From: a virus
Virus record (IMG/VR): IMGVR_UViG_3300032241_003073
Location: 34,315 to 98,314 of that record
Strand: one strand, 5' to 3'
Length of the DNA stretch: 64,000 nt
Positions within the stretch are counted from its first letter, which is position 1; each line of letters starts with the position of its first letter. The notes beneath the pieces were generated by a model. The model had not been told where the DNA came from, ran no database searches, and saw nothing but the letters and a program-made list of their open reading frames with translations. This document shows positions 11,892 to 59,454 of the stretch, piece by piece. The position numbers were made by a program, and so were the translations under genes.

Positions 11892-12039
11892 AATAAAAAA
11901 AAGAGAAAATAGGCAGCCAATTTTTATTGCTGGTCCTTCTATAGTCTCTTTCAAGAAGCCGAAATTGCCATTTTTACTTTTTACAAAAATTCATAAGCCA
12001 GGAATCCAAAATAATTCCAAATTTATATTTTTGCCTTAA
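11878..12039 (+). CDS. small basic hypothetical protein (53 aa)
   Basis: Below track cutoff; AAAGGA RBS; MKSFKIKKRENRQPIF... Confidence 0.35.
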   Translation: MKSFKIKKRENRQPIFIAGPSIVSFKKPKLPFLLFTKIHKPGIQNNSKFIFLP

Positions 12040-12407
12040 CCTTGTGCTTGTTGTTGTGAAAATTGTTGATTTTGGTCTTGGTTGGATTGATCGGGCTGAT
12101 TTTGAAATTGGTTAGATTGATCGGTTTGATTTTGATCAGATGAATTGTCTGCGTTTGCTCCAATTTCTTTGGAGAATTTGTTAAAAGCATTTTTGAATGA
12201 GTCATCTGAAACATTTTTTAAAGTTTCAAGGGCTTTTTTAACTTCAGGATCATCAAGAGGATTTCCAATTGCTGGAGATGTTTGTCCTCCTTGAACATCA
12301 GGGGTAGGAGGCGATTGTTGTTGTGATTGCTGCTGCATATCATTTGAATTTTGCATCATTGCATTTTCTTTTAGTATTTTTTGATAAAATTCATAAAACG
12401 ATTTCAT
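12036..12407 (-). CDS. Q/N-rich putative internal head protein
   Basis: Likely start MKSFYEFYQKILKE at 12407 (AGGTGA RBS); CTS-like N-terminus. Confidence 0.6.
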   Translation of the reverse strand: MKSFYEFYQKILKENAMMQNSNDMQQQSQQQSPPTPDVQGGQTSPAIGNPLDDPEVKKALETLKNVSDDSFKNAFNKFSKEIGANADNSSDQNQTDQSNQFQNQPDQSNQDQNQQFSQQQAQG

Positions 12408-12415
12408 TTTTTCAC

Positions 12416-12958
12416 CTATACAATTTTTATTTTTAAGTCTGGTTGTTTTTGGGTAACTTTGCCTTCTCCAGTAACCACGTCTTCTTGGAATCTTTGGCAA
12501 ATTAATTCAATTCTCAAAACCCCCCACATTTTAAATTCGGCCAAGTTTCTTTGAACTATTACCCAATTTTCACGCAAATGTGGAGTGAATAATCTTGATC
12601 CAATTTTAGGAGGATGTCCTATATTTTGCAAAACTGCTCTATAGTTTAATTCAAACTTCATTTCATCTGGGGCATCAATTCCAAATTGATTTAATAAGTT
12701 TTGTGATGGAATGGGTTCATAATTACACCATAATTGAACAGGATTGTTTGAAAAAATCTTTCCTCTTGCTTCCAAATACACTGGATCTATCATATTTGGA
12801 GTAATAATTACTTCATAATAATAAATTGGAGATCCGCCACGCAATAACGCTTCTTGATCCCATAAATTAAAAAGATCAAATGTACGGTCATTTGGATCAT
12901 ACATTTGTGTGCTTCCACGCAGTTGATAGCAAGTTCCGTCTAGATTTTTTAATGCCAT
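12416..12958 (-). CDS. neck / head-closure protein (gp14-like)
   Basis: DPVYLEAR, LLNQFGIDAPDEMKF, PKIGSRL; neck-gene context. Confidence 0.65.
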   Translation of the reverse strand: MALKNLDGTCYQLRGSTQMYDPNDRTFDLFNLWDQEALLRGGSPIYYYEVIITPNMIDPVYLEARGKIFSNNPVQLWCNYEPIPSQNLLNQFGIDAPDEMKFELNYRAVLQNIGHPPKIGSRLFTPHLRENWVIVQRNLAEFKMWGVLRIELICQRFQEDVVTGEGKVTQKQPDLKIKIV

Positions 12959-12969
12959 AATTTATATAG

Positions 12970-13440: not shown

Positions 13441-14106
13441 ATGGCAATTCGTAATAAAGATGGCACTGTATATAGATTATCTGCACCGAATCCTGTTATG
13501 AATACTCAAGAACTATGGAAAGAGTATCAAATTCACAATATGGAATGGGATACTGAAAAAATTGAAGAAGTTGAATTTATTCAAAAAAATGATGAACCGC
13601 AATATCAAGATGATTTTATTTCTAATTTAGACAAAGCAAAAGAAGAAATAAATGAAAAAGAAGAAATAAAGCCTAAAGAGGAAATAAAAGCAAAAGAGGA
13701 AAAGTTTGATTATATTTCTGAAGGAGAATCAAAAGTAGAAGGCTTTTCAAGAAAATCTATTATTAAGCCTGATCCTAAAGATGATGATGAAGAACAAGAT
13801 GTCATTAAAAAAGTTTTTATTCATTGTCTTCCTGCAAAGATTCGAGAGAGAAAAGATTCACTTTATGGTGATTCTTATAAAACTGTACAATACGATGCTC
13901 CAACATCTTTTGAAGGTGTGGTTTTGCGTCAAGAGGATTTATTTATAGATGTTTGGGTAGATTTTGATGGCATTGGAATTGGTTCTATTCTTTATCCAAA
14001 AGAAAATTTTAAAAGATGGTGGAGAGTTCAAGAAAAAATGAAAAAAGCAGGAGGTTGGATATTGACGGCAGTTCCATCAAGTTTCCAACCTTCTTTCGAA
14101 TTATGA
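13441..14106 (+). CDS. hypothetical protein, possible paralog of the gp14-like neck protein
   Basis: N-terminus MAIRNKDGTVYRL resembles MALKNLDGTCYQL; DSLYGD, IGSILYP. Confidence 0.55.
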   Translation: MAIRNKDGTVYRLSAPNPVMNTQELWKEYQIHNMEWDTEKIEEVEFIQKNDEPQYQDDFISNLDKAKEEINEKEEIKPKEEIKAKEEKFDYISEGESKVEGFSRKSIIKPDPKDDDEEQDVIKKVFIHCLPAKIRERKDSLYGDSYKTVQYDAPTSFEGVVLRQEDLFIDVWVDFDGIGIGSILYPKENFKRWWRVQEKMKKAGGWILTAVPSSFQPSFEL

Positions 14107-18124: not shown

Positions 18125-18982
18125 ATGAGAAGAAAAAAAAATCAAATTTGTGCATTTTCTTGGTATGGTGGAAAAACTTATCACTTAGATTGGATTTTAC
18201 CCATTATAAATCAAGTAGATCACAAAATTTATATTGAATCTTTTGGTGGATCTGCTGCTGTATTGCTAAATAAAAAACCAAGCCCAATAGAAGTTTATAA
18301 TGATATTCATGGAGATCTTGTGAATTTTTTTAGGGTTCTTAGAACAGAAGGAGAAGATTTGATTTCTCTTTTACAGTTGACTCCTTACAGCAGAGAAGAA
18401 TTTGTATTATCGTGCGAAATTCCAAAAAATTTATCACCATTAGAAAGAGCAAGAATGTTTTTTGTTAGAGCGAGACAAATTAGAAATGGCCTTGCTACTA
18501 ATGCGACTCCTGGAAAGTGGAGTTATACAAAAAAAGATGTAAGAAGAAATTGGGCATTGCCTATCAGTCAATGGTTTAATGCTATAGATTCGTTAGAAGA
18601 TATTTGCACTCGAATTGGTCAAGTTCAAATTGAAAATTTAGATGCATTCGATATTATTCAAAGATATGATACTCCTGAGTCTTTGCATTATATAGATCCT
18701 CCTTATTTGTTAAGTTCTAGAACTGGAGGAAAAAATTATGAATATGAATACAATGAAGATCAGCATGTTAATTTAATTAATTTACTATTAAATTTAAAAG
18801 GCAAAGTTGTTATTTCGGGTTACAAGAATGAATTATATCCTTCTTTGTTGAAAGGTTGGAATGAATATAGAAGGGCTGAATCTTTTGCAAATACAACTTT
18901 AAATAATGGTGAAAAAAAGTTAAGACAAGAAGTTATTTGGACAAATTTTGAATGCTCATTAGGCAAAGAAGGTTGGGAATGA
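18125..18982 (+). CDS. DNA adenine methyltransferase (D12/Dam class)
   Basis: WYGGK, YIESFGGSAAV, EVYND, YIDPPY, EVIWTN. Confidence 0.9.
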   Translation: MRRKKNQICAFSWYGGKTYHLDWILPIINQVDHKIYIESFGGSAAVLLNKKPSPIEVYNDIHGDLVNFFRVLRTEGEDLISLLQLTPYSREEFVLSCEIPKNLSPLERARMFFVRARQIRNGLATNATPGKWSYTKKDVRRNWALPISQWFNAIDSLEDICTRIGQVQIENLDAFDIIQRYDTPESLHYIDPPYLLSSRTGGKNYEYEYNEDQHVNLINLLLNLKGKVVISGYKNELYPSLLKGWNEYRRAESFANTTLNNGEKKLRQEVIWTNFECSLGKEGWE

Positions 18983-19578
18983 AGAACTTCCAAAATTGGC
19001 GAAACGAACAAAATATAGAAAAAAATAAAGATTTTTACGTTACCAGAGATGAGTTTTTAAATATTTGTCAAAAATATTTTGATTCTAATCTTCGTGGATC
19101 TATGAAAACTCATCATGAGTACATGCAAGAAAATTTAACAGAAGCTGTAGAAACTTCAAGATATTCAATTGAAGTTAATTATAGAACTACGACTAAAGAA
19201 GCTTTGGAAGGGTTTGCCAAAATTTGTTTGGGATATGTTAGTGCAGCATTAAAGAATCATGGATATCATACAAAACATGTTTTTTCTGAAAAACCTTTAA
19301 GACTTTTAATTTCTTCTAGAAATTGGGATGATGGAGAGTGGACGGGAGTTGTGACATGGCATCCTGATCATAATTGTTTTGTAATTAGCAAAGGTTTTTA
19401 TAATAAAGATCGTAAAACTGTGTCTATTCAAAGTTCACAAAAATGTAATGCAAATTCAGCCTCCGATGTCTCTAAAGAGTTACATAACATGATGAATCAT
19501 TTAAAAAATCAACCAGATAAAACATCAGAAAAAATTAAATTACGTCCTGTACCTTTGAAGAGAGGACCAAAAACATGA
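18979..19578 (+). CDS. hypothetical protein with CTS-like N-terminus
   Basis: ATGA overlap with MTase stop; MKNFQNWRNE. Confidence 0.6.
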   Translation: MKNFQNWRNEQNIEKNKDFYVTRDEFLNICQKYFDSNLRGSMKTHHEYMQENLTEAVETSRYSIEVNYRTTTKEALEGFAKICLGYVSAALKNHGYHTKHVFSEKPLRLLISSRNWDDGEWTGVVTWHPDHNCFVISKGFYNKDRKTVSIQSSQKCNANSASDVSKELHNMMNHLKNQPDKTSEKIKLRPVPLKRGPKT

Positions 19579-20060
19579 TTGAATTTTCAAAATGGCGAGA
19601 AAAAAAATTAAATGAACAATTTCACAGAATTGGCAAAGACAGTAAAAAATATTGGGGGCGACTTGGTGCTGGAATATTGTTTACAGATGGAGAGCGTGTT
19701 CTTCTTTTAAGAAGAGATGGCAGCAGTGATAATAAAGGATGTTGGGGAATTCCAGGAGGTAGAGCAAAAGACGGAGAAGCACCAATTGATGTTGCACGAA
19801 GGGAAACAAAAGAAGAATGCGGTTCGGCTGAAGGTCAAAGATTTGCACATTTTCACAGTGTGGATGGAGCCCATCATTTTCATACTTATTTGTTTGCAAT
19901 AGCTTCGCCTTTTGATGTTGAGCTTTCTAAAGAGCACAATCAGTGGAAATGGGTCAAATTAGACAAAGTAAAAGATCTAGATTTACATCCTCGCCTTAAA
20001 AAAGATTGGCCTAGTTTTTTAAAGGCGATAAAGAAAAAATTTTCTTTAAAAGATGATTGA
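19575..20060 (+). CDS. NUDIX hydrolase
   Basis: WGIPGGRAKDGEAPIDVARRETKEECG Nudix box. Confidence 0.9.
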   Translation: MIEFSKWREKKLNEQFHRIGKDSKKYWGRLGAGILFTDGERVLLLRRDGSSDNKGCWGIPGGRAKDGEAPIDVARRETKEECGSAEGQRFAHFHSVDGAHHFHTYLFAIASPFDVELSKEHNQWKWVKLDKVKDLDLHPRLKKDWPSFLKAIKKKFSLKDD

Positions 20061-22683: not shown

Positions 22684-22917
22684 TCAACCAGATGTATCTG
22701 GTTTCTTTTTTGGATTTCCGTTCTTATCATACCCCATTTTAAATAAAGCATCAGCAGCATAAGGTGTAAAATAAGCATCTGGATATTGGTGGCGAACATA
22801 AGCATCTGGATAAGCCCAATATGCAATTCCCGCTCTTTTTATTCCAGACTTTTCGTCGTGCTTATAAAGTGGCAATTCTTTTTTAGATTCGCCTGCCCAT
22901 TGAATAAATGATTTCAT
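22684..22917 (-). CDS. small protein with CTS-like N-terminus and YPDAY repeat
   Basis: MKSFIQWAGE; YPDAY twice; GAGG RBS. Confidence 0.6.
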   Translation of the reverse strand: MKSFIQWAGESKKELPLYKHDEKSGIKRAGIAYWAYPDAYVRHQYPDAYFTPYAADALFKMGYDKNGNPKKKPDTSG

Positions 22918-24802: not shown

Positions 24803-25714
24803 ATGCTATCATACAAACAATGGAAAACTTTGAATGAATCAGTAATGCCTAGCTTCACACTTGGCATTGCATCTCCTTCAAATCTTGGAATTCAATCTCC
24901 ATTTGCTATGGATTTGGAAGAAGCCAAAAAAATGGCAAAAAAGAAATATAAGAAAAAGTTCAAAGATGAAGAAGAAGACGATGATGAAACAGGCGATGGA
25001 GAAATGGTTAAGCCATCATCTGATAAAGATGAGCCAGATGTTGATGTAGATGTTGATTCGGACGAAGATTCAGATGAAGACAAAAACGTTTGCTCTAAAT
25101 GTGGAATGATGTCTAAAAAGAAATCAAAGATGAAGTCCAAAAAGAAAATGTGGTCTGATGACGATGATCAAGACGATGATTCTGAAGATGACGACGATCA
25201 AGACGATGAAGAAAAGTCTAAAGATGATGATGAAGAAGACGAAGAGGGCGATGATGAAGTTTCACCAAAGAAGATGATGTCTAAAAAGAAAATGAAGTCC
25301 GACGAAGAAGATGAAGATGAAGATGAAGACGATGGTAATGAAGAAGATGATGATGACGAAGACGAAGGCGAAGAAGACGAAGACGATGAAGGCGACGAGG
25401 AAGATGACGAAGATGACGAAGAAGAAGGCGACGATAAGCCTTCAAATAAAATGATGTCTAAAAAGAAAATGCTTAAAGGCAATCAACACAAGATTGACAT
25501 GAACAAAAATGGCAAAATTGACGCTGAAGACTTTAAGATTCTTAAAAACAAAAAGAAGAAAAATAAAAAGAAGGATGATTTGTCGGAAGATTCTTCTTGG
25601 TGGAACAGTGTTCAAAGCATGAATGTTTCTCCTTACACAAAATACAGTGATGGCTGTGAAAGTTTATTCACACCAATTGACACTGAAAATTTAACTCAAG
25701 GTGTTCGCTCCTAA
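24803..25714 (+). CDS. highly acidic low-complexity protein with EF-hand-like loop, putative prohead core/internal protein
   Basis: MLSYKQWKTLNE; D/E tracts; MMSKKK three times; DMNKNGKIDAED. Confidence 0.6.
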   Translation: MLSYKQWKTLNESVMPSFTLGIASPSNLGIQSPFAMDLEEAKKMAKKKYKKKFKDEEEDDDETGDGEMVKPSSDKDEPDVDVDVDSDEDSDEDKNVCSKCGMMSKKKSKMKSKKKMWSDDDDQDDDSEDDDDQDDEEKSKDDDEEDEEGDDEVSPKKMMSKKKMKSDEEDEDEDEDDGNEEDDDDEDEGEEDEDDEGDEEDDEDDEEEGDDKPSNKMMSKKKMLKGNQHKIDMNKNGKIDAEDFKILKNKKKKNKKKDDLSEDSSWWNSVQSMNVSPYTKYSDGCESLFTPIDTENLTQGVRS

Positions 25715-29208: not shown

Positions 29209-29514
29209 ATGTTTGGATTTCGTCAATTTATCGCTGATCGGGGCAACGACTCAAGTATAATTAATTTATACCTCAACAATCCCAAAATGAGGATTTCTGA
29301 AATTGCAAACGAATTTGGGAAGTCAGATGCGGAAATATACCGTATTCTTCACACACATCAGGTTTCCCCCAATCGTTTGAAAATTAATCATCAAAAAGTT
29401 CATAATCTTTTTAATTTAGGTTGGAGTATTAAAGAAATTGCACAATTTACAGGATACACTCCTAGAAATGTTCGATATATAATTTCAAAAAATATTTCCG
29501 AAGGTGGAAAATAA
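29209..29514 (+). CDS. double-HTH DNA-binding protein
   Basis: ISEIANEFGKS..EIYRIL and GWSIKEIAQFTGYTPRNVRYII. Confidence 0.7.
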   Translation: MFGFRQFIADRGNDSSIINLYLNNPKMRISEIANEFGKSDAEIYRILHTHQVSPNRLKINHQKVHNLFNLGWSIKEIAQFTGYTPRNVRYIISKNISEGGK

Positions 29515-34360: not shown

Positions 34361-34744
34361 TTATCCTGATGCCATTGGCTGCAATGGTGGAGAAGGTTTT
34401 TGTAGCGGATCACGTTCAGGCATCATTGGAGTAGCACGTTCAGAATTTGTATTAATATTTTGTTTTTCATTGTTGAATCCATGTCGATTGGCAATGTTGT
34501 TAACAACATAATAAATTGTTTCTATTGCTTTTTGTTTGTTCATTCTATTTTTATCAACGATTTGCAGAAAAGATTCTATTCTTCTTTGTAAATCATTTTG
34601 AAAATTTTCTAAATTTTCATTTTCATTGGCCGGTTCATGGTTTGCAGTAACATTAGATTGATTTTGCATAGAAGGATTTTGACCAACAGGGAGTGTTGGG
34701 CTTTCTGCATTATTTCCTTGTATGTATTCAAAAAAAGTTTTCAT
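34361..34744 (-). CDS. putative internal head protein
   Basis: MKTFFEYI; GAGGAG RBS. Confidence 0.6.
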   Translation of the reverse strand: MKTFFEYIQGNNAESPTLPVGQNPSMQNQSNVTANHEPANENENLENFQNDLQRRIESFLQIVDKNRMNKQKAIETIYYVVNNIANRHGFNNEKQNINTNSERATPMMPERDPLQKPSPPLQPMASG

Positions 34745-39485: not shown

Positions 39486-40022
39486 ATGCAATTTCAAAAT
39501 TGGTTATTCATTAATGAGTCAAATCTTCAAAGTCTTTATTCAAGCACAGTTAAAGCCTTCCCCAGAACACTGAAAAGACAATATTCTATTGATCCAATAA
39601 AAATCATAGAATTAAAATGGTTGCCATTTTTAGGAATGAAAACCTTGTTTGTTAAAGGGTTGGCACATAGTGATGAAAGCGGAAAAGATTATAATTCTAT
39701 GATATTATTCAAAGGAGTTAATTATCAAGAAAACAAAAATAAAAAAAATTTGATAGAAATTATTGCAAATGATGGAAACCAATACATTTTTGAAAAAATA
39801 AATCAAAAAAATGAAGTTTTAGTTCGATGCGATTGCAAAGATTTCCTTTATCGTTTTAATTATTTTAATCATAAAGATGAGTCTTTATATGGAAAAGTCA
39901 GAAAGAAATATGAAGCAAAAATCAATCCAGGTTCATCTAACCCATCAGAAATGCCTGGATTGTGCAAGCACTTAATTAAACTTGCCAAAGCATTAGATCA
40001 ATCAGGAATTTTGGAGGATTAA
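39486..40022 (+). CDS. SWIM-type Zn-finger protein
   Basis: VRCDCKDF ... GLCKHL; start MQFQNWLFINE. Confidence 0.7.
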   Translation: MQFQNWLFINESNLQSLYSSTVKAFPRTLKRQYSIDPIKIIELKWLPFLGMKTLFVKGLAHSDESGKDYNSMILFKGVNYQENKNKKNLIEIIANDGNQYIFEKINQKNEVLVRCDCKDFLYRFNYFNHKDESLYGKVRKKYEAKINPGSSNPSEMPGLCKHLIKLAKALDQSGILED

Positions 40023-40024
40023 AT

Positions 40025-41709: not shown

Positions 41710-42399
41710 ATGTATGACGCAATTATAATTTCAGATCTTCATTTGGGAAGCAATGTTTGTCAATCTAAAGAAATTTTAAAATTTTTACATCTTATTGATA
41801 ATTTGGAAATTATTACTGATAAATTAATCATTAATGGAGATTTTTTTGATTCTTGGGATTTCAGAAGATTGTCCAAACAACATTGGAAAATACTTTCAGC
41901 AATAAGAAAAATTTCAAAAAAAATTCAAATTGTTTGGATTAATGGAAATCATGACGGACCTTCAGAAGTAATATCACATCTTATAGGTGTTGAAGTAGCT
42001 GAAGAATTTATTTTACAAAGTGGATTTGAAAAAATTATGATTATTCATGGACATCAATTTGATGATTTCATTGTAGATCATCCAATTATAACTGAAATTG
42101 CTGATTTCTTTTATAGACAACTTCAAAAAATACATATTTTTTGGGCAAAAAACGCTAAAAAATACAGCAAAACATTTCTTCGTTGCTCAGAAAAAATTGA
42201 AAAACGTGCAAAAGAATATGCATTCCAAAAAGATTGTAGGGCAGTTTGTTGCGGACATACACATTTAGAATTAAAATCTATTGGTTTAATTGATTATTAT
42301 AATAGTGGATGTTGGACAGAATTACCATGTTCTTATTTGACGCTTCAAGCGGGGAATGTTCAATTAAACCACTTTTTTACAAACCAGGAGAAGAAGTAA
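41710..42399 (+). CDS. LpxH-like calcineurin-type metallophosphoesterase
   Basis: ISDLHLG, NGDFFD, GNHD, IHGHQFD, GHTH, YYNSGCW. Confidence 0.85.
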   Translation: MYDAIIISDLHLGSNVCQSKEILKFLHLIDNLEIITDKLIINGDFFDSWDFRRLSKQHWKILSAIRKISKKIQIVWINGNHDGPSEVISHLIGVEVAEEFILQSGFEKIMIIHGHQFDDFIVDHPIITEIADFFYRQLQKIHIFWAKNAKKYSKTFLRCSEKIEKRAKEYAFQKDCRAVCCGHTHLELKSIGLIDYYNSGCWTELPCSYLTLQAGNVQLNHFFTNQEKK

Positions 42400-42574
42400 C
42401 TCCTCCGCTACTTGCACAAGCACCTCCTGGACCTGGACCACCACCCATGCCACACAATTTCAAATCGTGTGGCTTTGGCTTAATATCTCTCGGTCCAGGT
42501 TTTCCAACAGAATTTTGAGCCTTTCCTTTGCTGAACCAAACTTCCTGTAGTGATAACCATTTTTTAAATTGCAT
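42377..42574 (-). CDS. small putative internal head protein
   Basis: MQFKKWLSLQE; TAAATA-N4-ATG. Confidence 0.55.
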   Translation of the reverse strand: MQFKKWLSLQEVWFSKGKAQNSVGKPGPRDIKPKPHDLKLCGMGGGPGPGGACASSGGVTSSPGL

Positions 42575-44300: not shown

Positions 44301-45155
44301 TTATTTTCTGGTTAAAGTAAAACGATCTCCTGATATTGTTATATCCCAACCAGACGAAAAATATTTTTCAACTAATCTTTTATAAATTGCCGCTCGACGA
44401 TTTTCTTTTCTTAAATATCCTTCTTGAGATAAAGATTGAATTGCTATTGAGGTATCTTTTAAATATTCATATAATCGCTCAATATCAAAATCCAAATATT
44501 TAAAAGATCCTCTTTCTATTTCATTCCTTAAATTATAAATAAATACTTCTAATTCTCGACCTTGATTGCTTTGAGGTTGTGCTGTCATATAAATATTAAT
44601 GTCTCTAATGAACTCTAGCCATTTTTCTTTATTGAAGTCTGGCTCAGGGCCGGGAATTGGACGGTTAAGCTTATTAAATAAATCAATTCTTTGTTGATTA
44701 GGAGGAAGCATCGTTGTTACATGACTTTTTATTGCATTTTTAAATTGATTTAATATTTCATTTGTATTCTTTATAAGAGTAACAGCATCCATTCCTCTGA
44801 TTAATTTTTCATCTCCCTGACCACTATGAGCAGTAAATGTAAATTTATTTGCATGAATCTTATCTGATTCTCTTTTTAAAAGACCAAGAACCCCAGGCAA
44901 TATTTCAGGATCTCGATACCTCTCGCCAGAACTAGCATTATCATCCAATACATTATTTACATAAAAAATAACTTGATATTCTTTGTTCCAATTGTCTATA
45001 AGTTGAACCTCCACTTTATTTTTTAGCTTTGTAGTGAAATTAATCTTTATCATTGGCTTTGCGTTATTTGTAGAAGCGTTTTTTATTGTGTTTTTTCTAC
45101 GGTATCCTTTAGGTATTACAGGTTCTATAATTTCTAGCCAATTTCTAAAATTCAT
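44301..45155 (-). CDS. hypothetical protein with CTS-like N-terminus
   Basis: MNFRNWLE after AAGGA RBS; C-terminal RAAIYKRL. Confidence 0.6.
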   Translation of the reverse strand: MNFRNWLEIIEPVIPKGYRRKNTIKNASTNNAKPMIKINFTTKLKNKVEVQLIDNWNKEYQVIFYVNNVLDDNASSGERYRDPEILPGVLGLLKRESDKIHANKFTFTAHSGQGDEKLIRGMDAVTLIKNTNEILNQFKNAIKSHVTTMLPPNQQRIDLFNKLNRPIPGPEPDFNKEKWLEFIRDINIYMTAQPQSNQGRELEVFIYNLRNEIERGSFKYLDFDIERLYEYLKDTSIAIQSLSQEGYLRKENRRAAIYKRLVEKYFSSGWDITISGDRFTLTRK

Positions 45156-45932: not shown

Positions 45933-46505
45933 ATGCAATTCAAAAATTTTTTAGAAAATTCAGAAAATAATAAAAAACGCATTTTAGTGCTGATCCATCC
46001 AGAATGTTGTGCTGAATTAGGTCCAGATCAAGCAAAAAAATACGTAGAATCACTTACAAGGGATTCTAATAAATTTGATTACATAATAACTCATGCTTTC
46101 ACATCAAGCTCTGATTGGGTTGATAATTCAATTTTGTCAAATGAAAGTAAAGAAGCTTGGAAAATTTTAAGAAAAGTTTCTGAGTCAATTAGTGATGTTT
46201 TTTTATGGAATCCTAAAGACATGTATGGGTGTTCTTACAGCAAAGAATTGCCCGATTATTTAATTGAGAATCCCGAATCCGAAATTTATATGGCGGGAGG
46301 CTATGAAAGCAATTGTTTGTGGATTGCATATCGGCAATTATTTGAAAAATTAAATTGGGTTTTAAAAGAAAACAAAACAAAAGTTCATTATTATAAGCCT
46401 CTTATTTTTACGAATAAAATTTCTGGTTATGCTTATCCCGAACCAAGATATCGTGACGACTTTCATCCTAGTAAAATTTCTTATAAAAATTCATTTGAAA
46501 ATTAA
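45933..46505 (+). CDS. hypothetical, possible cysteine-hydrolase (isochorismatase-like) fold
   Basis: ILVLIHPE, IYMAGGYESNCL; start MQFKNFLE. Confidence 0.45.
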   Translation: MQFKNFLENSENNKKRILVLIHPECCAELGPDQAKKYVESLTRDSNKFDYIITHAFTSSSDWVDNSILSNESKEAWKILRKVSESISDVFLWNPKDMYGCSYSKELPDYLIENPESEIYMAGGYESNCLWIAYRQLFEKLNWVLKENKTKVHYYKPLIFTNKISGYAYPEPRYRDDFHPSKISYKNSFEN

Positions 46506-52937: not shown

Positions 52938-54374
52938 TCAGATCACAAAATTTGCAATCGACATTCTAGCATAGAATTTAGCACCTTCACGGAGCAATTT
53001 TTTGCCGTATCTTGTTAGAATTCCCTTACGTGGGCAGAAGCTCTCTGGATCGAGAACAACTGGCGTTTGGGTTAGTGGAACATATGGACAGTAGAAATAA
53101 CCCGAATCCATATATGAATCTCCCTTATATCCCATCAAGATTTGATTGGTTGGGAATAGAGGATCTTTATATAGTCTCCAACGGTTGTTAACTGTTCCAA
53201 CATATTGAATGCCCAAGCTGCTAGTGAATGTCTCAGAAGGAGCAGGAGCGAAACCGGCTGTAGCTGTTTCAAAGATAGAAGCGACTTCAGGGCTGGTTAC
53301 GAGCCAGTTAGCTCCACCACGTAGTGTCTTTCTATGGATGACAGCAGATACTTCAACAACTTTGACGTAAAGGCTTTCATACTTTTCTTTGATTGTTTCG
53401 CCTAGTGCTGTATTGAAGTCCCAAGCAGTAACAGTACCAGAGTTGTTACGTAGGTCAGTAAGAACTTCACGGTCGATTTCTAGGTTGATTTCTTGGGCTA
53501 GAACAGCAGTCAATTCGGCTTCGGCATCCAAGTTGTGTTGGCTGCGAAGGTCTTGTTGTGCTTCATAGCTCCAAACAGCCTTTAGCTTACGAGTCTTAGC
53601 AGCAATTTCTTCTGATTCAATAACTAGATTGATTTCAGGAAGATCTTGTTGGCATTCCATGTTGTACTCATAGCTTAAAACAGCACGGTTTGTTCCTGGG
53701 GTGCCATTCCAAGTAAGAGAAAGTTCGCCAGTGTTTAGACTTAGGCTACCATTGGTAACATATGTTGATGGCGATCCAATGCTTGTTAGTGTAAAGCTGC
53801 CGCTTGAAGAAACAACGAATGTTTGAACAGCAGTGCTTCCAGCATAAATGGTTCCTGTTACAGTACCAGCAAGAATTGGGGTGTGTTCTAGTGGAGCATA
53901 GGTCGAAACAACTCCTGTACCTGGATCAGTTGTTGTTGATTCGTTTTGAACGAACTGATGGGTATAGAAGATGTCGAGGTTTGCAGTACCATCAGCGGTT
54001 TGCATTAAGCTGTTGGCATCATCACCTGGGAATCCACCAATATTGTCGGCACCACGAGTTGCACCTTTGTTGCTGCTGTAGCGGAAACGTAGGTAGTAAA
54101 CTAGACCAGTTGGTCCCAATAGTGGTTGAACGCTAACAATCTTGTTGGCGATTAGTTGTGGGTAAATACGACGAACTAGTGGAATGCTGATTCTCTTGAA
54201 TTGAGCAATATCGCCAGTGTCGGTTGAGACTTCGTTCATAAGTCTCTGATTTTCGAGTAGAACTGCTGTAGCAGAACGAGCATACTTATCTTCGATGCCT
54301 TCGAGGAGTCCGGTTCTGCCCCAACGAGATTCTAACTCCTTAGCTTCGTTTAAAAATCTAGAATTTGCGTTCAT
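52938..54374 (-). CDS. major capsid protein (T4 gp23-like)
   Basis: LLENQ, PLVRR, VSVQP, AKTRKLKA.WS.EA.QDL, EINLEIDRE, YCPYVPL, TRYG. Confidence 0.97.
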   Translation of the reverse strand: MNANSRFLNEAKELESRWGRTGLLEGIEDKYARSATAVLLENQRLMNEVSTDTGDIAQFKRISIPLVRRIYPQLIANKIVSVQPLLGPTGLVYYLRFRYSSNKGATRGADNIGGFPGDDANSLMQTADGTANLDIFYTHQFVQNESTTTDPGTGVVSTYAPLEHTPILAGTVTGTIYAGSTAVQTFVVSSSGSFTLTSIGSPSTYVTNGSLSLNTGELSLTWNGTPGTNRAVLSYEYNMECQQDLPEINLVIESEEIAAKTRKLKAVWSYEAQQDLRSQHNLDAEAELTAVLAQEINLEIDREVLTDLRNNSGTVTAWDFNTALGETIKEKYESLYVKVVEVSAVIHRKTLRGGANWLVTSPEVASIFETATAGFAPAPSETFTSSLGIQYVGTVNNRWRLYKDPLFPTNQILMGYKGDSYMDSGYFYCPYVPLTQTPVVLDPESFCPRKGILTRYGKKLLREGAKFYARMSIANFVI

Positions 54375-54418: not shown

Positions 54419-55315
54419 TTAGGATGATTTTTTTACACCTGATAGGATCAATAGTTGATCAATATCATTGTTTGTGGGTGCTGCGTATTCCGATAAAACA
54501 ACACCTTCGTCTGCAATTTTGCCTCTCCCCGTTACATTCTTTGCTTTTTCAGATCTTTCTTTCTGTTCCGTGATAAAACTGGACTTTTTGTCACGAGAAA
54601 TTGCCTTACGGCTTTCTGTGATAATTTCTTGAGCTTGTCTTACGCTTTCGTTTAGCTTTGTGTTTTCAGTCGATAGACGAATATTACGAGCTTCCATTAG
54701 GCGAAGTTGGCCCTTCATTTCTTCGATTGATTTGTTTGCTTCGTCTAGCTTGCTAGAAGAAACTGTTGCGAAATCTACATCAGATAGATAATTACTTGTT
54801 AGATCAATGATCTTATCTAGAGTAACCTTGTGTTCAGACATGCGAGGATCATTAAGAACATCTCTCTTGGCTTGTTCGTAAATTTCTTGTCCTTTGAATT
54901 GAAGGAATTGATCAACCTTGTCAACAATGTATTCCTTCATTTCTGCTAGCTTCTTGTCGTATTCTTCATACATTTCGACTTCTAGCGATTGATTTTTGTT
55001 TCTCTCTGTCTTTAGAATTTGATATGCTTCTTCGTATCCTTCTTCTAGTGCGGCCTTGTATTCTTCGCCTTGAACTTCTAAGCGATTTCTAAGATCAGCG
55101 ATAATTGCATAAGCTTCTTCGTATCCCTTTTCTGCTGTTTTTTCAGCAGTTTCTAGTTCGCCTGTAAGCTCTGCATAAGCTTCTTCGAGCTTATCGTTGA
55201 ATTCCTTTTCAAGACTGTTCTTGGTTTCTTCTAGCATTTCCTTTACAGCAGATGCTACTTCACCAACTTCAGCTTCAGGTAACATTCTTTTAAGTGCTTC
55301 TGTGATTTTGTCCAT
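54419..55315 (-). CDS. prohead scaffolding protein (gp22-like)
   Basis: Acidic coiled coil directly upstream of MCP; many (I/L)xE sites. Confidence 0.8.
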   Translation of the reverse strand: MDKITEALKRMLPEAEVGEVASAVKEMLEETKNSLEKEFNDKLEEAYAELTGELETAEKTAEKGYEEAYAIIADLRNRLEVQGEEYKAALEEGYEEAYQILKTERNKNQSLEVEMYEEYDKKLAEMKEYIVDKVDQFLQFKGQEIYEQAKRDVLNDPRMSEHKVTLDKIIDLTSNYLSDVDFATVSSSKLDEANKSIEEMKGQLRLMEARNIRLSTENTKLNESVRQAQEIITESRKAISRDKKSSFITEQKERSEKAKNVTGRGKIADEGVVLSEYAAPTNNDIDQLLILSGVKKSS

Positions 55316-56467: not shown

Positions 56468-57127
56468 TTAAATTCTTTTAAGCATTTGTTTCTTTTCTGA
56501 TTCAACAATTCCTCCCAAGCAAGCTATCAAAGCTTCTTTGGATACTTTGGGTTTTGTTGGAATTGAAGAAGTATTATATGTTGGAACATAACTTTCTTTT
56601 TTACCAGAAAATTCTTTTTGATATGCATTATGAGTGCTTGGGTCAGCAACAGCGTCGAATGTGATTAGCTTATAGCTTTCTCCAATAACAAGAATTCCAT
56701 TTTCATCACTTCTGCCGTTTCCAACTCCACGGCTACTAATTCCAACTCTTACACCATCTGATATAAGACTTTTTAGAATTTTACCATGAGGTGTGTTAAG
56801 GATTTCTCCTTCTCCCATTAGGTTGTTTCCTTCCCACCACAATTTTGTGATAATGTGGGAACACTTTTCAAAGTGAATAATTGAATCTGTAGGATGGTCT
56901 AGTTCTCCAACTAGACCACGAGCTTCAACAATTGGAATTAGCTTTTTTAAATTTTCATCAAGAACTGTATACGGGTAAATTCTTTTGTTCTTATTGACTG
57001 CTTCAGCTTCTTGGAATTTACCTCTAAATTTAGTCAAACCTTTATCGGTTGTTGATTCATTTAGACTTAGGGTGAATCCGCTGTTGTTGCAACAGTCAAC
57101 GAATAGACTTAGTTTCTCATCATTCAT
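56468..57127 (-). CDS. prohead protease (T4 gp21-like)
   Basis: NKNKRIYP, GELDHP, TPHGKI, GISSRGVG, FDAVADPS; GGAG RBS before ATG 57127. Confidence 0.93.
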   Translation of the reverse strand: MNDEKLSLFVDCCNNSGFTLSLNESTTDKGLTKFRGKFQEAEAVNKNKRIYPYTVLDENLKKLIPIVEARGLVGELDHPTDSIIHFEKCSHIITKLWWEGNNLMGEGEILNTPHGKILKSLISDGVRVGISSRGVGNGRSDENGILVIGESYKLITFDAVADPSTHNAYQKEFSGKKESYVPTYNTSSIPTKPKVSKEALIACLGGIVESEKKQMLKRI

Positions 57128-57144
57128 TGGACTCCTTTTTAAAA

Positions 57145-58920
57145 TTAAGCTTTGGTTTCGCCCTTGGTTTTGTCCCATGGAGAAGCAGGAACATATGGAT
57201 TCTTTAGATTTGGCCAAGTGTCGCCAGATTGCCAACGACTCCAATCGCTATCGCCATCATCCACTGCTGATTTTTCTTTCATTTTGTAGTCGCCAAATGG
57301 CTTGGGAACGTATGGGTTGCTAAGTGCTGGCCATTCATCGCCATCAGAATGATTGCCCCATGCATTGCTTCTCATTTCGTCTGCCAAATTGTTTTTATAG
57401 CTTTTTCCATCAGATACTGGAGCCGAGTCGCCCCAATCTCCAGGGAATTTGGATGGCACAGCATCTCCAACTTTAGCGGCCCAAGACATACGTGGGTGAT
57501 CTCCACTTACTGTATGATGGACATTGTTATTGTTTACATCCCATGTGTCGTTTGCTCCATCTACATTAGCTTCAACAAAACTATGAATGTAAGAAGCGAT
57601 TGATTCTGCTAGTCCCAAATCAATTTCTGTTTCATAATTTAGAATTGCAGCACATTCTTGCATAAAGTTTTCAGTTTCTGATTGAGTAGCTTCATCACCA
57701 TTCTTTACAGCAACTTTTCGAACTTCATTTAATGCATTGAATAGATCAGAGAACATTTTGAAATTAGCTTGATCAGATTCATCTAGTTTGGCATAGAATC
57801 CATCAACCAATGTTTTAAACTCTTTGTAAGAATCTTCGCATTGTTTGCATTCTGCTGTTACATCAGTTGTGGCTCCTGCCAAATTTCCAATTTTACGAAC
57901 ACGATCAGTATAAGCATTGTGTGCTGTTCTTAGAATAGCTTCGGCCATAAACGAACAAACTTTATCATCATAATTTGATACGTTTGCAGTCTCTAATGCA
58001 GTGGCAATTTGCGAAGATAATTCTTCTTCTGTAGAATAAAGAACATCTGGCCAACGGCTAACAATGGCTTCAAGTGTTTCTTCGAGAGAGATATTGTCAG
58101 AAATATTGTTATATCTCTTGAGATCTGACATTGCTTTGACGAATGCTTGATCTTCAGACAATCTCTTCATTTTTCCACGTAGAACTTTAAGTTCGTGATC
58201 TAGTGTCTTCCAGTTGAAGCTTAGAATCTTGCTTTCGTTTCTCTTTTGAAGAGTTGGAACAGCAACAGCAACAACATTACCTTTGTTATCGGTACGAATA
58301 AAAGATTCAGAAAGAACTGGTCCAAATTCCTTGTAATTAATGTAATTGATTACATTTTCGCACATAACTTGCCATTCTTTGATGGTTTCAGGCTTGATTT
58401 TTTTGGCATAGAAAGCAGTTTTTGGATTTTTTCCTTTCTTGACAAATTTTTTAAGATTCTTTAGATTCTTGAGATTCTTCTTGGATTTTTTCGATGCTAG
58501 TTTTTCTGCCTTTGGCTTGGTTGCTTCGTTTACTAGCAATTCACGCCTAACGAATGGCATGGATAGATAGCTTTCAAATAGATTGCTTGCTTTTGCTTCA
58601 TTATTTTCTAATAAAGAATCAACCATATTTACCAAAACTTGACGAGCAGATTTCTTTTCGCCGCTTTCTTCAATAACTAATTGTTCAATATTTTCAAGAA
58701 CCAATTGATCCTTGTTTAGACTATAAGTAGCATGAACGAAGTTTCCATCTGGTTCTTGATAAGTAACATCAGATTCTCCATAAACAAATAGATTTAAACT
58801 ATCTTTTTCTAGAGAATTTGCCAAAACTTCTTCTGCACCAATTAACTCTTCTTGGGCTTTTGTAAGTGATCCTTCTTCGATTTTTTTGAAAGCATCGAAG
58901 CTGATTAATTTTCTTTTCAT
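57145..58920 (-). CDS. prohead core protein
   Basis: ~590 aa, in the portal-to-protease interval; many (L/I)xE sites; C-terminal WP.L.NPYVP twice. Confidence 0.6.
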   Translation of the reverse strand: MKRKLISFDAFKKIEEGSLTKAQEELIGAEEVLANSLEKDSLNLFVYGESDVTYQEPDGNFVHATYSLNKDQLVLENIEQLVIEESGEKKSARQVLVNMVDSLLENNEAKASNLFESYLSMPFVRRELLVNEATKPKAEKLASKKSKKNLKNLKNLKKFVKKGKNPKTAFYAKKIKPETIKEWQVMCENVINYINYKEFGPVLSESFIRTDNKGNVVAVAVPTLQKRNESKILSFNWKTLDHELKVLRGKMKRLSEDQAFVKAMSDLKRYNNISDNISLEETLEAIVSRWPDVLYSTEEELSSQIATALETANVSNYDDKVCSFMAEAILRTAHNAYTDRVRKIGNLAGATTDVTAECKQCEDSYKEFKTLVDGFYAKLDESDQANFKMFSDLFNALNEVRKVAVKNGDEATQSETENFMQECAAILNYETEIDLGLAESIASYIHSFVEANVDGANDTWDVNNNNVHHTVSGDHPRMSWAAKVGDAVPSKFPGDWGDSAPVSDGKSYKNNLADEMRSNAWGNHSDGDEWPALSNPYVPKPFGDYKMKEKSAVDDGDSDWSRWQSGDTWPNLKNPYVPASPWDKTKGETKA

Positions 58921-59100
58921 AATCAATTGACTCCCTGTGCTGTTGTTGAATTTTTTATTCGCAACTACTGCCTATGATGAGGTTATTTATTATAGTCAGC
59001 TTAATTTTTATTAAAGTCGGCTTATTTTTTTTAAAAAAACATAAAATGGATAAACCTCTGGTATATAGTTATGCATGTAAATATAAAAATGAGTGTAAAA

Positions 59101-59454
59101 ATGAAAACATTTCAAGATTATTTGAATGAGAACGATAATGAAGCATCATCTTCTGGGTCTGATGATGCTTATAATGCAGCAATTCAGGCATTTGAAATCG
59201 TTATGTCAAAAAACAGCAAAGCGGCGGTAAATTTTTTAAATGACATTTCTTCAACACTTCCAGAAATTAAAACAATTCTTCAAAAATATGGTTTAGATTC
59301 TTTTAAGTCTGTGAATCCTGGATATGAAAGAAAAAATGGAAGAAAAATAACGCATAAAGGATTGGGAGATTTTTCTACACACGATGTAAATGATCGTAAT
59401 GTTGATGTAATTGCAACTAATGCAGCAGACTCATATCAAAATCCAATTGGATAA
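59101..59454 (+). CDS. putative internal head protein
   Basis: MKTFQDYLNE, canonical CTS-like; start could be 59089. Confidence 0.65.
   Translation: MKTFQDYLNENDNEASSSGSDDAYNAAIQAFEIVMSKNSKAAVNFLNDISSTLPEIKTILQKYGLDSFKSVNPGYERKNGRKITHKGLGDFSTHDVNDRNVDVIATNAADSYQNPIG

What the first reader, a model, noticed from the sequence alone, without database searches (positions are those of the whole stretch)
12036..59454. About 20 unrelated genes share a T4 capsid-targeting-like N-terminal tag: a candidate head-packaged cargo system
Seen: after correcting starts, these ORFs begin with M-x(1-2)-F/Y-x-x-F/W/Y or a close variant, usually with a nearby Glu: MKSFYEFYQKILKE (12407-), IKSFRDFI (17182-), MKNFQNWRNE (18979), MIEFSKWREKKLNE (19575), MKSFIQWAGE (22917-), MLSYKQWKTLNE (24803), MFGFRQFIAD (29209), MKTFFEYI (34744-), MNFQKLWE (35070-), MSFKEWL (35593-), MKTFYESL (37519), MQFQNWLFINE (39486), MQFKKWLSLQE (42574-), MKSYQEFKE (43270-), MQTFQQFLE (43665), MRTISDF (43847, weak), MNFRNWLE (45155-), MQFKQYIYE (45193), MQFKNFLE (45933), MKTFQDYLNE (59101). 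The rest of each protein is unrelated. Known: T4 internal proteins use MKTYQEFIAE/MKTFKEF to enter the prohead and are cut by gp21 after (I/L)xE; a gp21-like protease is encoded at 56468. Inference: a short portable tag loads a far larger and more varied protein set than T4's three IPs, for injection with the DNA.
Basis: partly seen in the sequence, partly recalled or inferred. Interest (0 to 1): 0.85.

Follow-up and report, generated by a model that had tools for sequence, protein, structure and literature searches.

The report
T4-like head-loading tags, huge phage
About one gene in seven on this piece of an uncultured huge phage starts with a short peptide matching the tag phage T4 uses to load proteins into its head. 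The phage probably packs and injects dozens of different proteins, several of them enzymes, but packaging has not been shown.

Summary
The window lies in a 98-kb fragment of a T4-superfamily huge phage that encodes a Gp23 capsid protein, an S77 prohead protease, a gp20 portal and a gp55-like late sigma factor.

- **How many:** a profile of the tag, trained only on this contig and its 595-kb relative LR756511, finds it on 17-20 of 139 genes here (15 in the window) and on 43-54 of about 1,080 genes in LR756511. It matches 0.1% of internal Met positions.
- **Cross-check:** in phage T4 the same profile picks ipI, ipII and ipIII, plus gp61.1.
- **Conserved positions:** aromatic 4, aromatic 7, Leu/Ile 8 and a following Glu. 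These are the positions that experiments in T4 showed to drive targeting (4, 7) and cleavage (8, 10).
- **Portability:** a NUDIX enzyme carries the tag here but not in LR756511.
- **Other properties:** the tag lies outside the predicted fold of one cargo, and the cargo proteins are basic.
- **Promoters:** half to two-thirds of tagged genes have a TAnATA late-promoter box 4-5 nt before the ATG, which implies leaderless late mRNAs.
- **Spread:** T4 has 4 tags. XacN1, Mel-JY01 and the 484-kb LR756508 have 0-1.

Packaging, cleavage and injection are inferred, not shown. This scan has noted the same kind of tag on other huge-phage DNA. I found no paper describing it.

The parts
12036..12407 (-). 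Tagged gene, 123 aa, MKSFYEFYQKILKE, Shine-Dalgarno start, Q-rich linker after the tag
   Evidence: Profile 9.6 bits; LKE at residues 12-14; no Pfam family
18979..19578 (+). Tagged gene, 199 aa, MKNFQNWRNE, Shine-Dalgarno start
   Evidence: 12.4 bits; the LR756511 orthologue (61% identity) starts MLNFKDYVEE and also carries a tag
19575..20060 (+). Tagged NUDIX hydrolase, 161 aa, MIEFSKWREKKLNE; the tag and linker form a 27-residue extension before the NUDIX core
   Evidence: NUDIX E=4.9e-17 over residues 29-140; the LR756511 NUDIX homologue (41% identity) starts directly at the core without a tag
24803..25714 (+). Tagged gene, 303 aa, MLSYKQWKTLNE
   Evidence: 13.8 bits, LNE at residues 10-12; no Pfam family
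29209..29514 (+). Tagged small HTH protein, 101 aa, MFGFRQFIAD; late box 4 nt before the ATG; Asp instead of Glu at position 10
   Evidence: 14.0 bits, box at 4 nt; HTH_24 and Sigma70_r4_2-like hits; the orthologue in LR756511 starts MDGFKEFFAE
34361..34744 (-). Tagged gene, 127 aa, MKTFFEYIQG, low-complexity linker after the tag
   Evidence: 12.0 bits
35375..35593 (-). Tagged gene, 72 aa, MSFKEWLSKD, late box 4 nt before the ATG
   Evidence: 17.2 bits, box at 4 nt
39486..40022 (+). Tagged conserved cargo, 178 aa, MQFQNWLFINE|S, with a SWIM-like CxC...CxH motif; late box 4 nt before the ATG
   Evidence: 15.7 bits. 182 homologues, on contigs up to 633 kb. Glu11 is present in 118 of the 120 listed, and some members have a shortened tag or none. 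AlphaFold2 pLDDT 87.8, with residues 1-9 below 50. Best solved-structure match ZSWIM8, Z 5.4
42377..42574 (-). Tagged gene, 65 aa, MQFKKWLSLQE, late box 4 nt before the ATG
   Evidence: 15.4 bits
43031..43270 (-). Tagged gene, 79 aa, MKSYQEFKE
   Evidence: 15.5 bits
43665..43850 (+). Tagged gene, 61 aa, MQTFQQFLE, very basic, late box 4 nt before the ATG
   Evidence: 22.8 bits, the best in the contig
44301..45155 (-). Tagged gene, 284 aa, MNFRNWLEIIE
   Evidence: 19.6 bits
45193..45918 (+). Tagged nucleotidyltransferase-like protein, 241 aa, MQFKQYIYE
   Evidence: 13.4 bits; NTP_transf_2 E=5.5e-4, just under the cut-off
45933..46505 (+). Tagged gene, 190 aa, MQFKNFLE, late box 4 nt before the ATG
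   Evidence: 17.5 bits
59101..59454 (+). Tagged gene beside the head module, 117 aa, MKTFQDYLNE, conserved across the clade
   Evidence: 15.0 bits; 26 orthologues in IMG/VR loci, nearly all of which keep MK[TSK]F..Y[LVI].[LIVMF][KRN]E followed by a linker of variable length
22684..22917 (-). Borderline tag, 77 aa, MKSFIQWAGE
   Evidence: Matches the regex but scores only 3.8 bits
34741..35070 (-). Borderline tag, 109 aa, MNFQKLWEN, aromatic spacing one residue too long
   Evidence: 6.2 bits
14375..17182 (-). 935-aa protein with the motif four residues in from the Met (MASLIKSFRDFILKD): a possible offset tag
   Evidence: Fails the N-terminal register; its LR756511 homologue starts MLLKFKEFLD, 8.4 bits with Phe at residue 5
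56468..57178 (-). Prohead protease, gp21-like (Peptidase_S77); the proposed enzyme that removes the tag
   Evidence: PF03420 at 94.4 bits, phrog_207 E=6.8e-48
54419..55315 (-). Candidate scaffold (gp22 position between protease and capsid gene), 298 aa, acidic and helical in character; proposed docking partner of the tag
   Evidence: No family hit. Highest [LI]xE density of 106 proteins: 14 sites against 7.1 after shuffling, P=0.0035
57145..58920 (-). 591-aa protein between protease and portal (the place of gp67/gp68 in T4); possible prohead core protein
   Evidence: A homologue was found only in LR756511 among the five genomes compared; [LI]xE 11 against 6.1 after shuffling, P=0.04
52938..54374 (-). 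Major capsid protein, Gp23 family
   Evidence: PF07068 at 290 bits; the site aligned to T4's LTE|A cut reads LMNE|V
60176..63934 (-). Portal protein, gp20 family, interrupted by intein and homing-endonuclease domains
   Evidence: Portal_T4 at 228 bits, plus Intein_splicing and LAGLIDADG_3
5241..5789 (+). gp55-like late sigma factor; the proposed reader of the TAnATA boxes
   Evidence: phrog_234 E=5.3e-11 at contig 39747-40034, which is window 5433-5720

Best explanation
The shared N-terminus is a T4-type capsid targeting sequence (CTS) that has spread to a large set of unrelated genes in one clade of uncultured huge phages.

Proposed course of events:
1. Late in infection a gp55-like sigma factor reads TAnATA boxes. 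For half to two-thirds of the tagged genes the box ends 4-5 nt before the ATG, so the mRNA has little or no leader.
2. The first 9-15 residues, M-x-[TSN]-F-x-[EQ]-[WFY]-[LIF]-(x0-3)-E, dock the new protein onto the scaffolding core of the assembling prohead. The two aromatic residues three apart are the main contact, as at positions 4 and 7 of T4 IPIII.
3. After the shell closes, the S77 prohead protease cuts after the Glu of a hydrophobic-x-Glu site at the end of the tag.
4. The mature, mostly basic proteins stay with the DNA and enter the next host with it. There the enzymes (here NUDIX and a nucleotidyltransferase; in the relative NADAR, papain-like and legumain-like peptidases and a 2H phosphoesterase), the DNA-binding proteins and the many unknowns act before any phage gene is expressed.

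Shown here: the tag, its enrichment and strict N-terminal position, its match to T4's CTS and its determinants, the T4-type head genes and late sigma factor, the link to the promoter box, the basic cargo, and gain and loss of the tag.

Inferred: docking to the scaffold, cleavage, retention in the virion, injection, the transcription start at the ATG, and the roles of the cargo.
For: 1. Enrichment and position: 23/140 at an unbiased start against 1.7% background. 26 observed against 3.8 +/- 1.8 after shuffling. Phe at residue 3 or 4 in 20 proteins against 1 hit in 25,290 deeper positions.
2. Cross-validation: the profile was trained only on the two huge-phage sequences. In T4, four of its five hits at 6 bits or more are ipII, ipIII, ipI and gp61.1.
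3. Determinants: experiments in T4 place targeting at CTS residues 4 and 7 and processing at 8 and 10 (PMC9026906). Here column 4 is Phe/Tyr, column 7 Trp/Phe/Tyr, column 8 Leu/Ile/Phe, and Glu is enriched at 9-12. A strict [LI]xE follows the aromatic pair in 13 of the 20 tags (my count from the sequences). On the looser regex set it is 15/33 against 16/106 in untagged N-termini.
4. Machinery: Gp23, Peptidase_S77 and Portal_T4. The candidate scaffold is the protein richest in [LI]xE. The capsid protein has LMNE|V where T4 is cut at LTE|A.
5. Portable peptide, selected as a peptide:
- Orthologues keep the aromatic pair while the other residues change.
- The NUDIX enzyme is tagged here and untagged in LR756511.
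- The 39486 family has full, shortened and absent tags.
- The Phe codons (TTT 31, TTC 18) follow genome-wide usage.
- Nearly all orthologues of the 59101 gene keep tag-[LIVMF]-x-E followed by a linker of variable length.
6. The tag lies outside the fold: residues 1-9 have pLDDT below 50, and the confident model starts just after Glu11.
7. The cargo is basic, like T4's internal proteins: median pI 9.2 against 6.7 here (P=0.04), and 8.85 against 6.3 in LR756511 (P=2e-7).
8. Late timing: the TAnATA box lies 3-6 nt before the ATG in 10/20 tagged against 2/120 untagged genes here, and in 34/54 against 46/1029 in LR756511. The same box lies about 30 nt upstream of the capsid and tube genes of LR756511, ahead of a ribosome site. 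A gp55-like sigma factor is encoded. T4's late box spans -13 to -6 (PMC2988020).
9. Precedent for function: T4 IPI blocks GmrSD (PMC3012670), and IPIII is needed to infect ECOR17.
Against: - No virion proteome, cleavage data or RNA data exist for this phage or any relative. No RNA run was listed.
- About a third of the tags lack a strict [LI]xE. In LR756511 the commonest ending is W-L-E, with an aromatic at P3, which is not T4's consensus.
- The scaffold has no detectable similarity to T4 gp22, so the docking partner is a guess.
- Fifty or more different packaged proteins would be far more than T4's handful, and some cargo types (NUDIX, HTH) could equally act inside the producing cell.
- The link with the leaderless promoter box leaves room for a role in expression.
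- The closest phages outside the clade, which have the same protease family, have essentially no tags, so the protease alone does not predict the system.
Confidence: 0.72

Rival explanations
1. The peptide is a docking or sorting label, but for something other than the prohead. It could be a shared chaperone, a protease that activates or destroys these proteins at a set time, or another virion part or a structure in the infected cell.
For: The properties shown here would suit any address label: strict N-terminal position, portability, position outside the fold, and a conserved aromatic pair. The reader of the tag has not been identified, and the scaffold has no detectable T4 homology. Relatives with the same protease family lack tags.
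Against: The profile retrieves T4's internal proteins and almost nothing else in T4. The conserved positions are those shown in T4 to drive head targeting and gp21 processing. The cargo is basic, like DNA-associated internal proteins. The genes carry late-type promoters, as head proteins do.
Confidence: 0.15
2. The conserved start is a requirement of expression rather than of the protein. The first codons would serve translation of leaderless late mRNAs, or form part of the promoter's initially transcribed region.
For: There is a strong association with a TAnATA box 4-5 nt before the ATG: odds ratio 59 here and 36 in LR756511.
Against: - Eight of the 20 tagged genes here and 13 of 54 in LR756511 have a Shine-Dalgarno site and no adjacent box.
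- In LR756511, 46 untagged genes have the same box geometry.
- Phe and Glu codons vary synonymously, in line with genome-wide usage.
- The motif occurs in two registers relative to the ATG.
- T4's internal-protein genes carry the same peptide behind ordinary ribosome sites.
Confidence: 0.05
3. The shared start is a by-product of recombination. A mobile promoter-plus-start cassette has spread between genes and carries a few codons along, with no function for the peptide itself.
For: The box and the tag travel together on many genes. The tag differs in presence between homologues. Tagged genes cluster in variable islands, for example 42.3-46.5 kb.
Against: The tags differ widely at the DNA and residue level and keep only the aromatic pair, the hydrophobic residue and the Glu. 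That is the pattern of purifying selection on a peptide, not of recent copying. Orthologues at 38-61% identity still keep it.
Confidence: 0.05

Closest known systems
Capsid targeting sequence (CTS) of phage T4 internal proteins IPI, IPII and IPIII (Mullaney and Black 1996; reviews PMC3012670 and PMC9026906)
   Same: A 10-19-residue N-terminal propeptide on otherwise unrelated, basic proteins. Aromatic residues at positions 4 and 7, a hydrophobic residue at 8 and a Glu at about 10. T4-type capsid, portal and S77 protease genes. The tag profile built here retrieves ipI, ipII and ipIII in T4.
   Different: - Scale: 4 candidate genes among 258 called ORFs in T4, against 17-20 of 139 here and 43-54 of about 1,080 in LR756511.
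- The cargo includes recognisable enzymes.
- Trp is common at position 7, and many tags end W-L-E rather than [LI]xE.
- Most tagged genes have a late box abutting the ATG instead of a leader with a ribosome site.
- The capsid protein is only 29% identical to gp23.
- Nothing has been tested experimentally.
Variable internal-protein loci of T-even phages (Repoila et al. 1994, as cited in PMC9026906)
   Same: Different basic proteins are swapped behind a conserved CTS-like start. This is read as an arms race with host defences.
   Different: Those phages carry a few such genes at one or two loci in about 170 kb. Here dozens are spread over the genome of a distant huge-phage clade.
Propeptides of ejection proteins in phiKZ-like giant phages such as SPN3US (PMC5694885, PMC10052503)
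   Same: A giant phage head holds many packaged, ejected proteins that are processed by a gp21-related protease after Glu.
   Different: Those propeptides are mostly over 100 residues long, have no shared short motif, and are cut at S/A/G-x-E-type sites (for example ALE and SLE). Here the tag is a 9-15-residue motif of T4 type.
T4 late promoters (TATAAATA read by gp55; PMC2988020)
   Same: An AT-rich box without a -35 element, also found upstream of the capsid and tube genes. A gp55-like sigma factor is encoded.
   Different: The conserved core is the shorter TAnATA. On tagged genes it ends 4-5 nt before the ATG, which by T4 geometry (box at -13 to -6) puts the transcription start at or next to the A of the ATG. 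I found no description of that arrangement for T4 late genes.

Membership tests
T4-type capsid targeting sequence (CTS) | Sits at the extreme N-terminus of otherwise unrelated proteins | tested here: met
   Phe column at residue 3 or 4 in 20 proteins, against 1 hit in 25,290 deeper positions. The 73 tagged proteins align only over the tag.
T4-type capsid targeting sequence (CTS) | Aromatic residues at positions 4 and 7, the targeting determinants in IPIII (PMC9026906) | tested here: met
   Column 4 is Phe/Tyr and column 7 is Trp/Phe/Tyr in all tagged proteins. These are the most informative columns of the profile.
T4-type capsid targeting sequence (CTS) | Processing determinants: Leu/Ile at position 8 and Glu at position 10, that is an (L/I)-x-E site at the end of the tag | tested here: met
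   A strict [LI]xE follows the aromatic pair in 13 of the 20 tags (my count). On the looser set it is 15/33 against 16/106 in untagged N-termini. Nearly all orthologues of the 59101 gene keep [LIVMF]-x-E. Seven tags lack a strict site, and one has Asp at position 10.
T4-type capsid targeting sequence (CTS) | Sequence likeness to the proven T4 tags | tested here: met
   The profile, trained without T4, scores ipII at 9.6, ipIII at 10.0 and ipI at 7.4 bits. Of the five T4 ORFs at 6 bits or more, four are ipI, ipII, ipIII and gp61.1.
T4-type capsid targeting sequence (CTS) | A gp21-type prohead protease (Peptidase_S77) is encoded with a Gp23 capsid protein and a gp20 portal | tested here: met
   PF03420 at 94 bits, PF07068 at 290 bits, PF07230 at 228 bits.
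T4-type capsid targeting sequence (CTS) | A gp22-type scaffolding core to which the tag binds | tested here: inconclusive
   A 298-aa acidic protein occupies the gp22 position and has the highest [LI]xE density in the contig. It has no detectable similarity to any family or to T4. Binding was not tested.
T4-type capsid targeting sequence (CTS) | Tagged proteins are present in the virion, have the tag removed, and are delivered to the host | not testable with these tools
   The phage is uncultured. No proteome exists and no RNA run was listed.
phiKZ/SPN3US-type ejection-protein propeptides | Long propeptides (mostly over 100 residues) without a shared short motif, cut at S/A/G-x-E-type sites | tested here: not met
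   The tags here are 9-15 residues long with a shared motif. The fold of one cargo begins at about residue 12. The description of the family is taken from PMC5694885.
T4-type late promoter | An AT-rich box of TATAAATA type about one helical turn upstream of the start, no -35 element, read by a gp55 sigma factor | tested here: inconclusive
   The TAnATA core is strongly linked to tagged genes and is present upstream of the capsid and tube genes in LR756511. A gp55-like gene is found (phrog_234, E=5e-11). No transcription start has been mapped.

The most novel reading that the evidence does not exclude
A module of roughly 45 bp (late box, ATG and about ten tag codons) works as a portable switch. 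Placed in front of any gene, it would make the product a late-expressed, leaderless, head-loaded and injected protein. With it, a widespread clade of uncultured huge phages would deliver fifty or more different proteins with their DNA, many of them enzymes aimed at host defences and signalling. That would be the largest injected protein arsenal known for a phage, and it could be read directly from sequence.
Probability: 0.35. Interest if true: 0.8.

Novelty: new variant of a known kind. Interest (0 to 1): 0.6.

Why it matters
If the tag works as in T4, the packaged and injected protein set of uncultured huge phages can be listed from sequence alone. That would point to dozens of candidate counter-defence and host-takeover proteins per genome, most of them without known families. 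It would also show that T4's head-loading signal has kept its key residues across very distant relatives (capsid protein 29% identical), and that a large head goes with a large cargo repertoire. The link to promoter boxes that abut the start codon suggests a compact unit of regulation plus targeting that can be moved between genes. Such a unit would be of practical use for loading foreign proteins into phage heads.

Tried and rejected
- **Megablast** of the head module against cultured phages found no match.
- **Sequencing runs:** no RNA holder was listed, only three DNA runs of one study, one of them probably the source. I therefore did not lay reads, and the leaderless start remains unmapped.
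- **T4 gp55** as a single-sequence query found nothing in the contig or in LR756511, and Pfam has no gp55 family. The PHROG profile phrog_234 did find a homologue.
- **Family searches:** most tagged proteins had no Pfam or PHROG hit.
- **Fold search** with the 39486 cargo model: Foldseek against the PDB gave nothing at E <= 0.001. The wider search gave only ZSWIM8 at Z 5.4, which fits the CxC...CxH motif but is weak.
- **Scaffold and 591-aa protein** gave no tblastn hit in T4, XacN1, Mel-JY01 or LR756508. This is uninformative because scaffolds diverge quickly.
- **Chance or AT-rich composition** was rejected. The same tag and box occur in LR756511 at 42% GC, and the shuffle, internal-Met and positional controls all fail to reproduce it.
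- **Secretion signal** was rejected by inspection. The tags are short and acidic and have no hydrophobic core.
- **A single paralogous family** was rejected, because the 73 tagged proteins share nothing beyond the tag.

Full report
**What the window is**

The window is bases 34,315-98,314 of a 98,314-bp IMG/VR viral contig, about 30% GC, which CheckV rates 23% complete. It encodes these T4-type genes:
- a Gp23-family major capsid protein (52938-54374, minus strand);
- a Peptidase_S77 prohead protease (56468-57178, minus strand);
- a gp20-family portal interrupted by inteins (60176-63934, minus strand);
- a tail sheath and two gp19-like tube proteins;
- a gp55-like late sigma factor (5241-5789, plus strand; phrog_234, E=5e-11).

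The nearest record is LR756511.1, an uncultured phage of 595,163 bp and 42% GC, with a capsid protein 81% identical. The T4 capsid protein is 29% identical. IMG/VR holds at least 353 relatives. The best 80 have capsid proteins 82-92% identical and lie on contigs up to 532 kb. The window is therefore a fragment of a T4-superfamily huge phage from a widespread uncultured clade.

I called genes on the whole contig with a simple codon-usage caller, which gave 140 genes.
- Taking the first ATG of each ORF, a rule that cannot favour the motif, M-x(1,2)-[FY]-x-x-[FWY] matches 23 of 140. It matches 1.7% of internal Met and 1.7% of all positions.
- After start correction 26 match. Shuffling residues 2-15 of every protein gives 3.8 +/- 1.8, and never more than 9 in 1000 trials.
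- I built a 10-column profile from the N-termini of this contig and LR756511 only. At 8 bits it accepts 0.1% of internal Met. It finds 17-20 of 139 genes here and 43-54 of about 1,080 in LR756511.
- The hits sit almost only at the very start. Phe is at residue 3 or 4 in 20 and 54 proteins respectively. Deeper than residue 30 there are 1 hit in 25,290 positions here and 29 in 138,873 in LR756511.

Two are borderline: 22917 at 3.8 bits and 35070 at 6.2 bits. Two fail: 37519 and 43847. In 17182 the motif starts four residues in from the Met. Five more tagged genes lie upstream of the window on the same contig.

**Is it T4's tag?**

A review of the T4 work states that the first 10 residues of IPIII suffice for head loading. 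Targeting depends mainly on residues 4 and 7, and processing on residues 8 and 10. An Asp at position 10 blocks cutting but not loading (PMC9026906).
- The profile's informative columns are the same ones: Phe/Tyr at 4, Trp/Phe/Tyr at 7, Leu/Ile/Phe at 8, and Glu enriched at 9 and 12.
- I ran the profile, trained without any T4 sequence, over the T4 genome. Of five ORFs at 6 bits or more, four were ipII, ipIII, ipI and the 54-aa hypothetical gp61.1 (MKTFKEFIKE). The fifth looks like chance. The profile therefore detects the CTS.
- A strict [LI]xE follows the aromatic pair in 13 of the 20 tags here (my count). On the looser regex set it is 15 of 33, against 16 of 106 untagged N-termini.
- In the 27 sequences of the head-module gene 59101, the pattern MK[TSK]F..Y[LVI].[LIVMF][KRN]E is kept in nearly all. 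The next 15-30 residues are a linker of variable length before the conserved domain.

**Evidence about the protease**

- Where T4 gp23 is cut (LTE|A), this capsid protein reads LMNE|V and that of LR756511 reads LFNE|I. The protease may therefore accept a bulky hydrophobic residue at P3, which would also fit the frequent W-L-E and F-L-E tag endings.
- The 298-aa acidic protein at the gp22 position has the highest [LI]xE density of all 106 proteins of 100 aa or more. It has 14 sites against 7.1 expected from its own composition (P=0.0035). This is what one expects of a scaffold that is chopped up, as T4 gp22 is.

**The tag is a portable peptide selected as a peptide**

- Orthologues in the two phages (38-61% identical) keep the aromatic pair while the other tag residues change.
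- The NUDIX hydrolase at 19575 carries the tag on a 27-residue extension. Its LR756511 homologue starts at the catalytic core without one.
- The cargo at 39486 has 182 homologues, on contigs up to 633 kb. Of the 120 listed, 49 pass the 8-bit threshold, many more carry lower-scoring variants of the full tag, and others have it shortened to M-x-x-W-L-E or lack it. Glu11 is present in 118 of the 120.
- An AlphaFold2 model of this cargo is confident (pLDDT 87.8) except for residues 1-9. The confident part begins just after Glu11.
- The Phe codons in the tags (TTT 31, TTC 18) follow genome-wide usage, and the motif occurs in two registers relative to the ATG. Selection therefore acts on the peptide and not on the RNA.

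**Properties of the cargo**

With the first 12 residues removed, tagged proteins are basic. The median pI is 9.2 against 6.7 here (P=0.04) and 8.85 against 6.3 in LR756511 (P=2e-7). T4's internal proteins are likewise described as basic (PMC9026906).

Most tagged proteins have no known family. Those with one are:
- here: NUDIX, a small HTH/sigma-region-4-like protein and a nucleotidyltransferase-like protein;
- in LR756511: NADAR, CAP, papain-like (C39-like) and legumain-like (C13) peptidases, a 2H phosphoesterase domain and a sulfotransferase.

In T4, IPI blocks the GmrSD restriction enzyme (PMC3012670), and IPIII is needed to infect strain ECOR17. A counter-defence role for much of this cargo is therefore a reasonable guess, but only a guess.

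**Promoter boxes**

A TAnATA box ends 3-6 nt (mostly 4-5) before the ATG in 10 of 20 tagged against 2 of 120 untagged genes here. In LR756511 the figures are 34 of 54 against 46 of 1,029. In that 42%-GC genome the box cannot be put down to AT richness. These genes have no Shine-Dalgarno site.

The same box lies about 30 nt upstream of the capsid and tube genes of LR756511, followed by a ribosome site. T4's late box spans -13 to -6 (PMC2988020). Taken with the gp55-like sigma factor, the box is most likely the late promoter. On most cargo genes it would then place the transcription start at or next to the A of the ATG, giving leaderless late mRNAs.

This coupling is not obligatory. Eight tagged genes here and 13 in LR756511 have ordinary ribosome sites and no adjacent box, and 46 untagged genes of LR756511 have the leaderless geometry. 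For that reason I reject the idea that the peptide is merely a requirement of leaderless translation.

**How widespread is it?**

Counts of ORFs at 8 bits or more:

| Genome | Tagged ORFs | ORFs called |
|---|---|---|
| T4 | 3 (ipI scores 7.4; 5 ORFs reach 6 bits) | 258 |
| Microcystis phage Mel-JY01 | 1 | 234 |
| Xanthomonas phage XacN1 | 0 | 538 |
| LR756508 (484 kb; capsid protein 34% identical) | 1 | 702 |
| LR756511 | 43-54 | about 1,080 |
| This contig | 17-20 | 139 |

The 0.99 Mb around the capsid gene in 80 IMG/VR relatives holds 87 tagged ORFs, against 4 hits at 5,633 internal ATGs. Forty-eight of the 80 loci have at least one. The expansion therefore belongs to this clade and not to huge phages in general.

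**Novelty**

The CTS itself, and the swapping of internal proteins behind it in T-even phages, are textbook. The review even suggests that the CTS is an evolutionary means of loading varied proteins. What I could not find in the searchable literature is three things:
- a genome with dozens of CTS-tagged genes;
- the tag in huge phages;
- its coupling to promoter boxes that abut the start codon.

Earlier notes of this scan report the same kind of tag on other huge-phage contigs and on the upstream part of this contig, and the TAnATA box on this stretch. These are unchecked AI notes. I reached the box and the upstream tags independently before reading them. I class the finding as a new variant of a known kind.

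**What remains inferred**

Docking to the scaffold, cleavage, retention in the head, injection, the transcription start and the roles of the cargo are all inferred. The decisive data would be virion mass spectrometry with N-termini after the Glu, a protease assay, and 5'-end mapping.

Noticed in passing
T4 genome NC_000866.4, 18966-19130 (gene 61.1): The hypothetical 54-aa gp61.1 starts MKTFKEFIKE and gets the highest tag score in T4 (14.5 bits), above ipI, ipII and ipIII. It may be a fourth, unrecognised head-loaded protein. It lies next to 61.2.
   Followed up: partly
window 29209-29514: The tagged HTH protein starts MFGFRQFIAD. This is T4's FIAE ending with Asp at position 10, a change that in T4 blocks cutting but still allows loading (PMC9026906). 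It may be carried with its tag uncut. The LR756511 orthologue has FFAE.
   Followed up: no
window 60176-63934: The portal gene is 1,252 codons long. It carries Intein_splicing, Hint and LAGLIDADG homing-endonuclease domains inside a gp20-type portal. The LR756511 portal has 857 codons.
   Followed up: no
window 55316-56467: A 1.15-kb stretch separates the scaffold and protease genes, which are adjacent in LR756511. It holds only a plus-strand ORF without any family hit. It may be an inserted element.
   Followed up: partly
window 50002-51570 and 51700-52845: Two homing-endonuclease/HNH-type genes sit directly beside the capsid gene. One also has Mom-like and endonuclease VII-like matches.
   Followed up: no
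window 12416-12958 (-) and 13441-14106 (+): Two divergently placed paralogues, MALKNLDGTCYQLR and MAIRNKDGTVYRLS, start without a ribosome site. The first has a TATATA box 4 nt before its ATG and the second a TATAT stretch. They appear to be leaderless-type genes without the tag, and they have no known family.
   Followed up: partly
LR756511.1, about 474464-474877 (NUDIX gene): The untagged NUDIX protein of the relative ends ...HNHSFKEWLSQRI. This is a tag-like SFKEWL motif at its C-terminus, possibly the remnant of the start of a neighbouring tagged gene fused in frame.
   Followed up: no
window 20515-21354: A Thg1-like tRNA-His guanylyltransferase gene (E=2.6e-30). Its start MKFYKDFQ resembles the tag only loosely (-0.6 bits).
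   Followed up: partly
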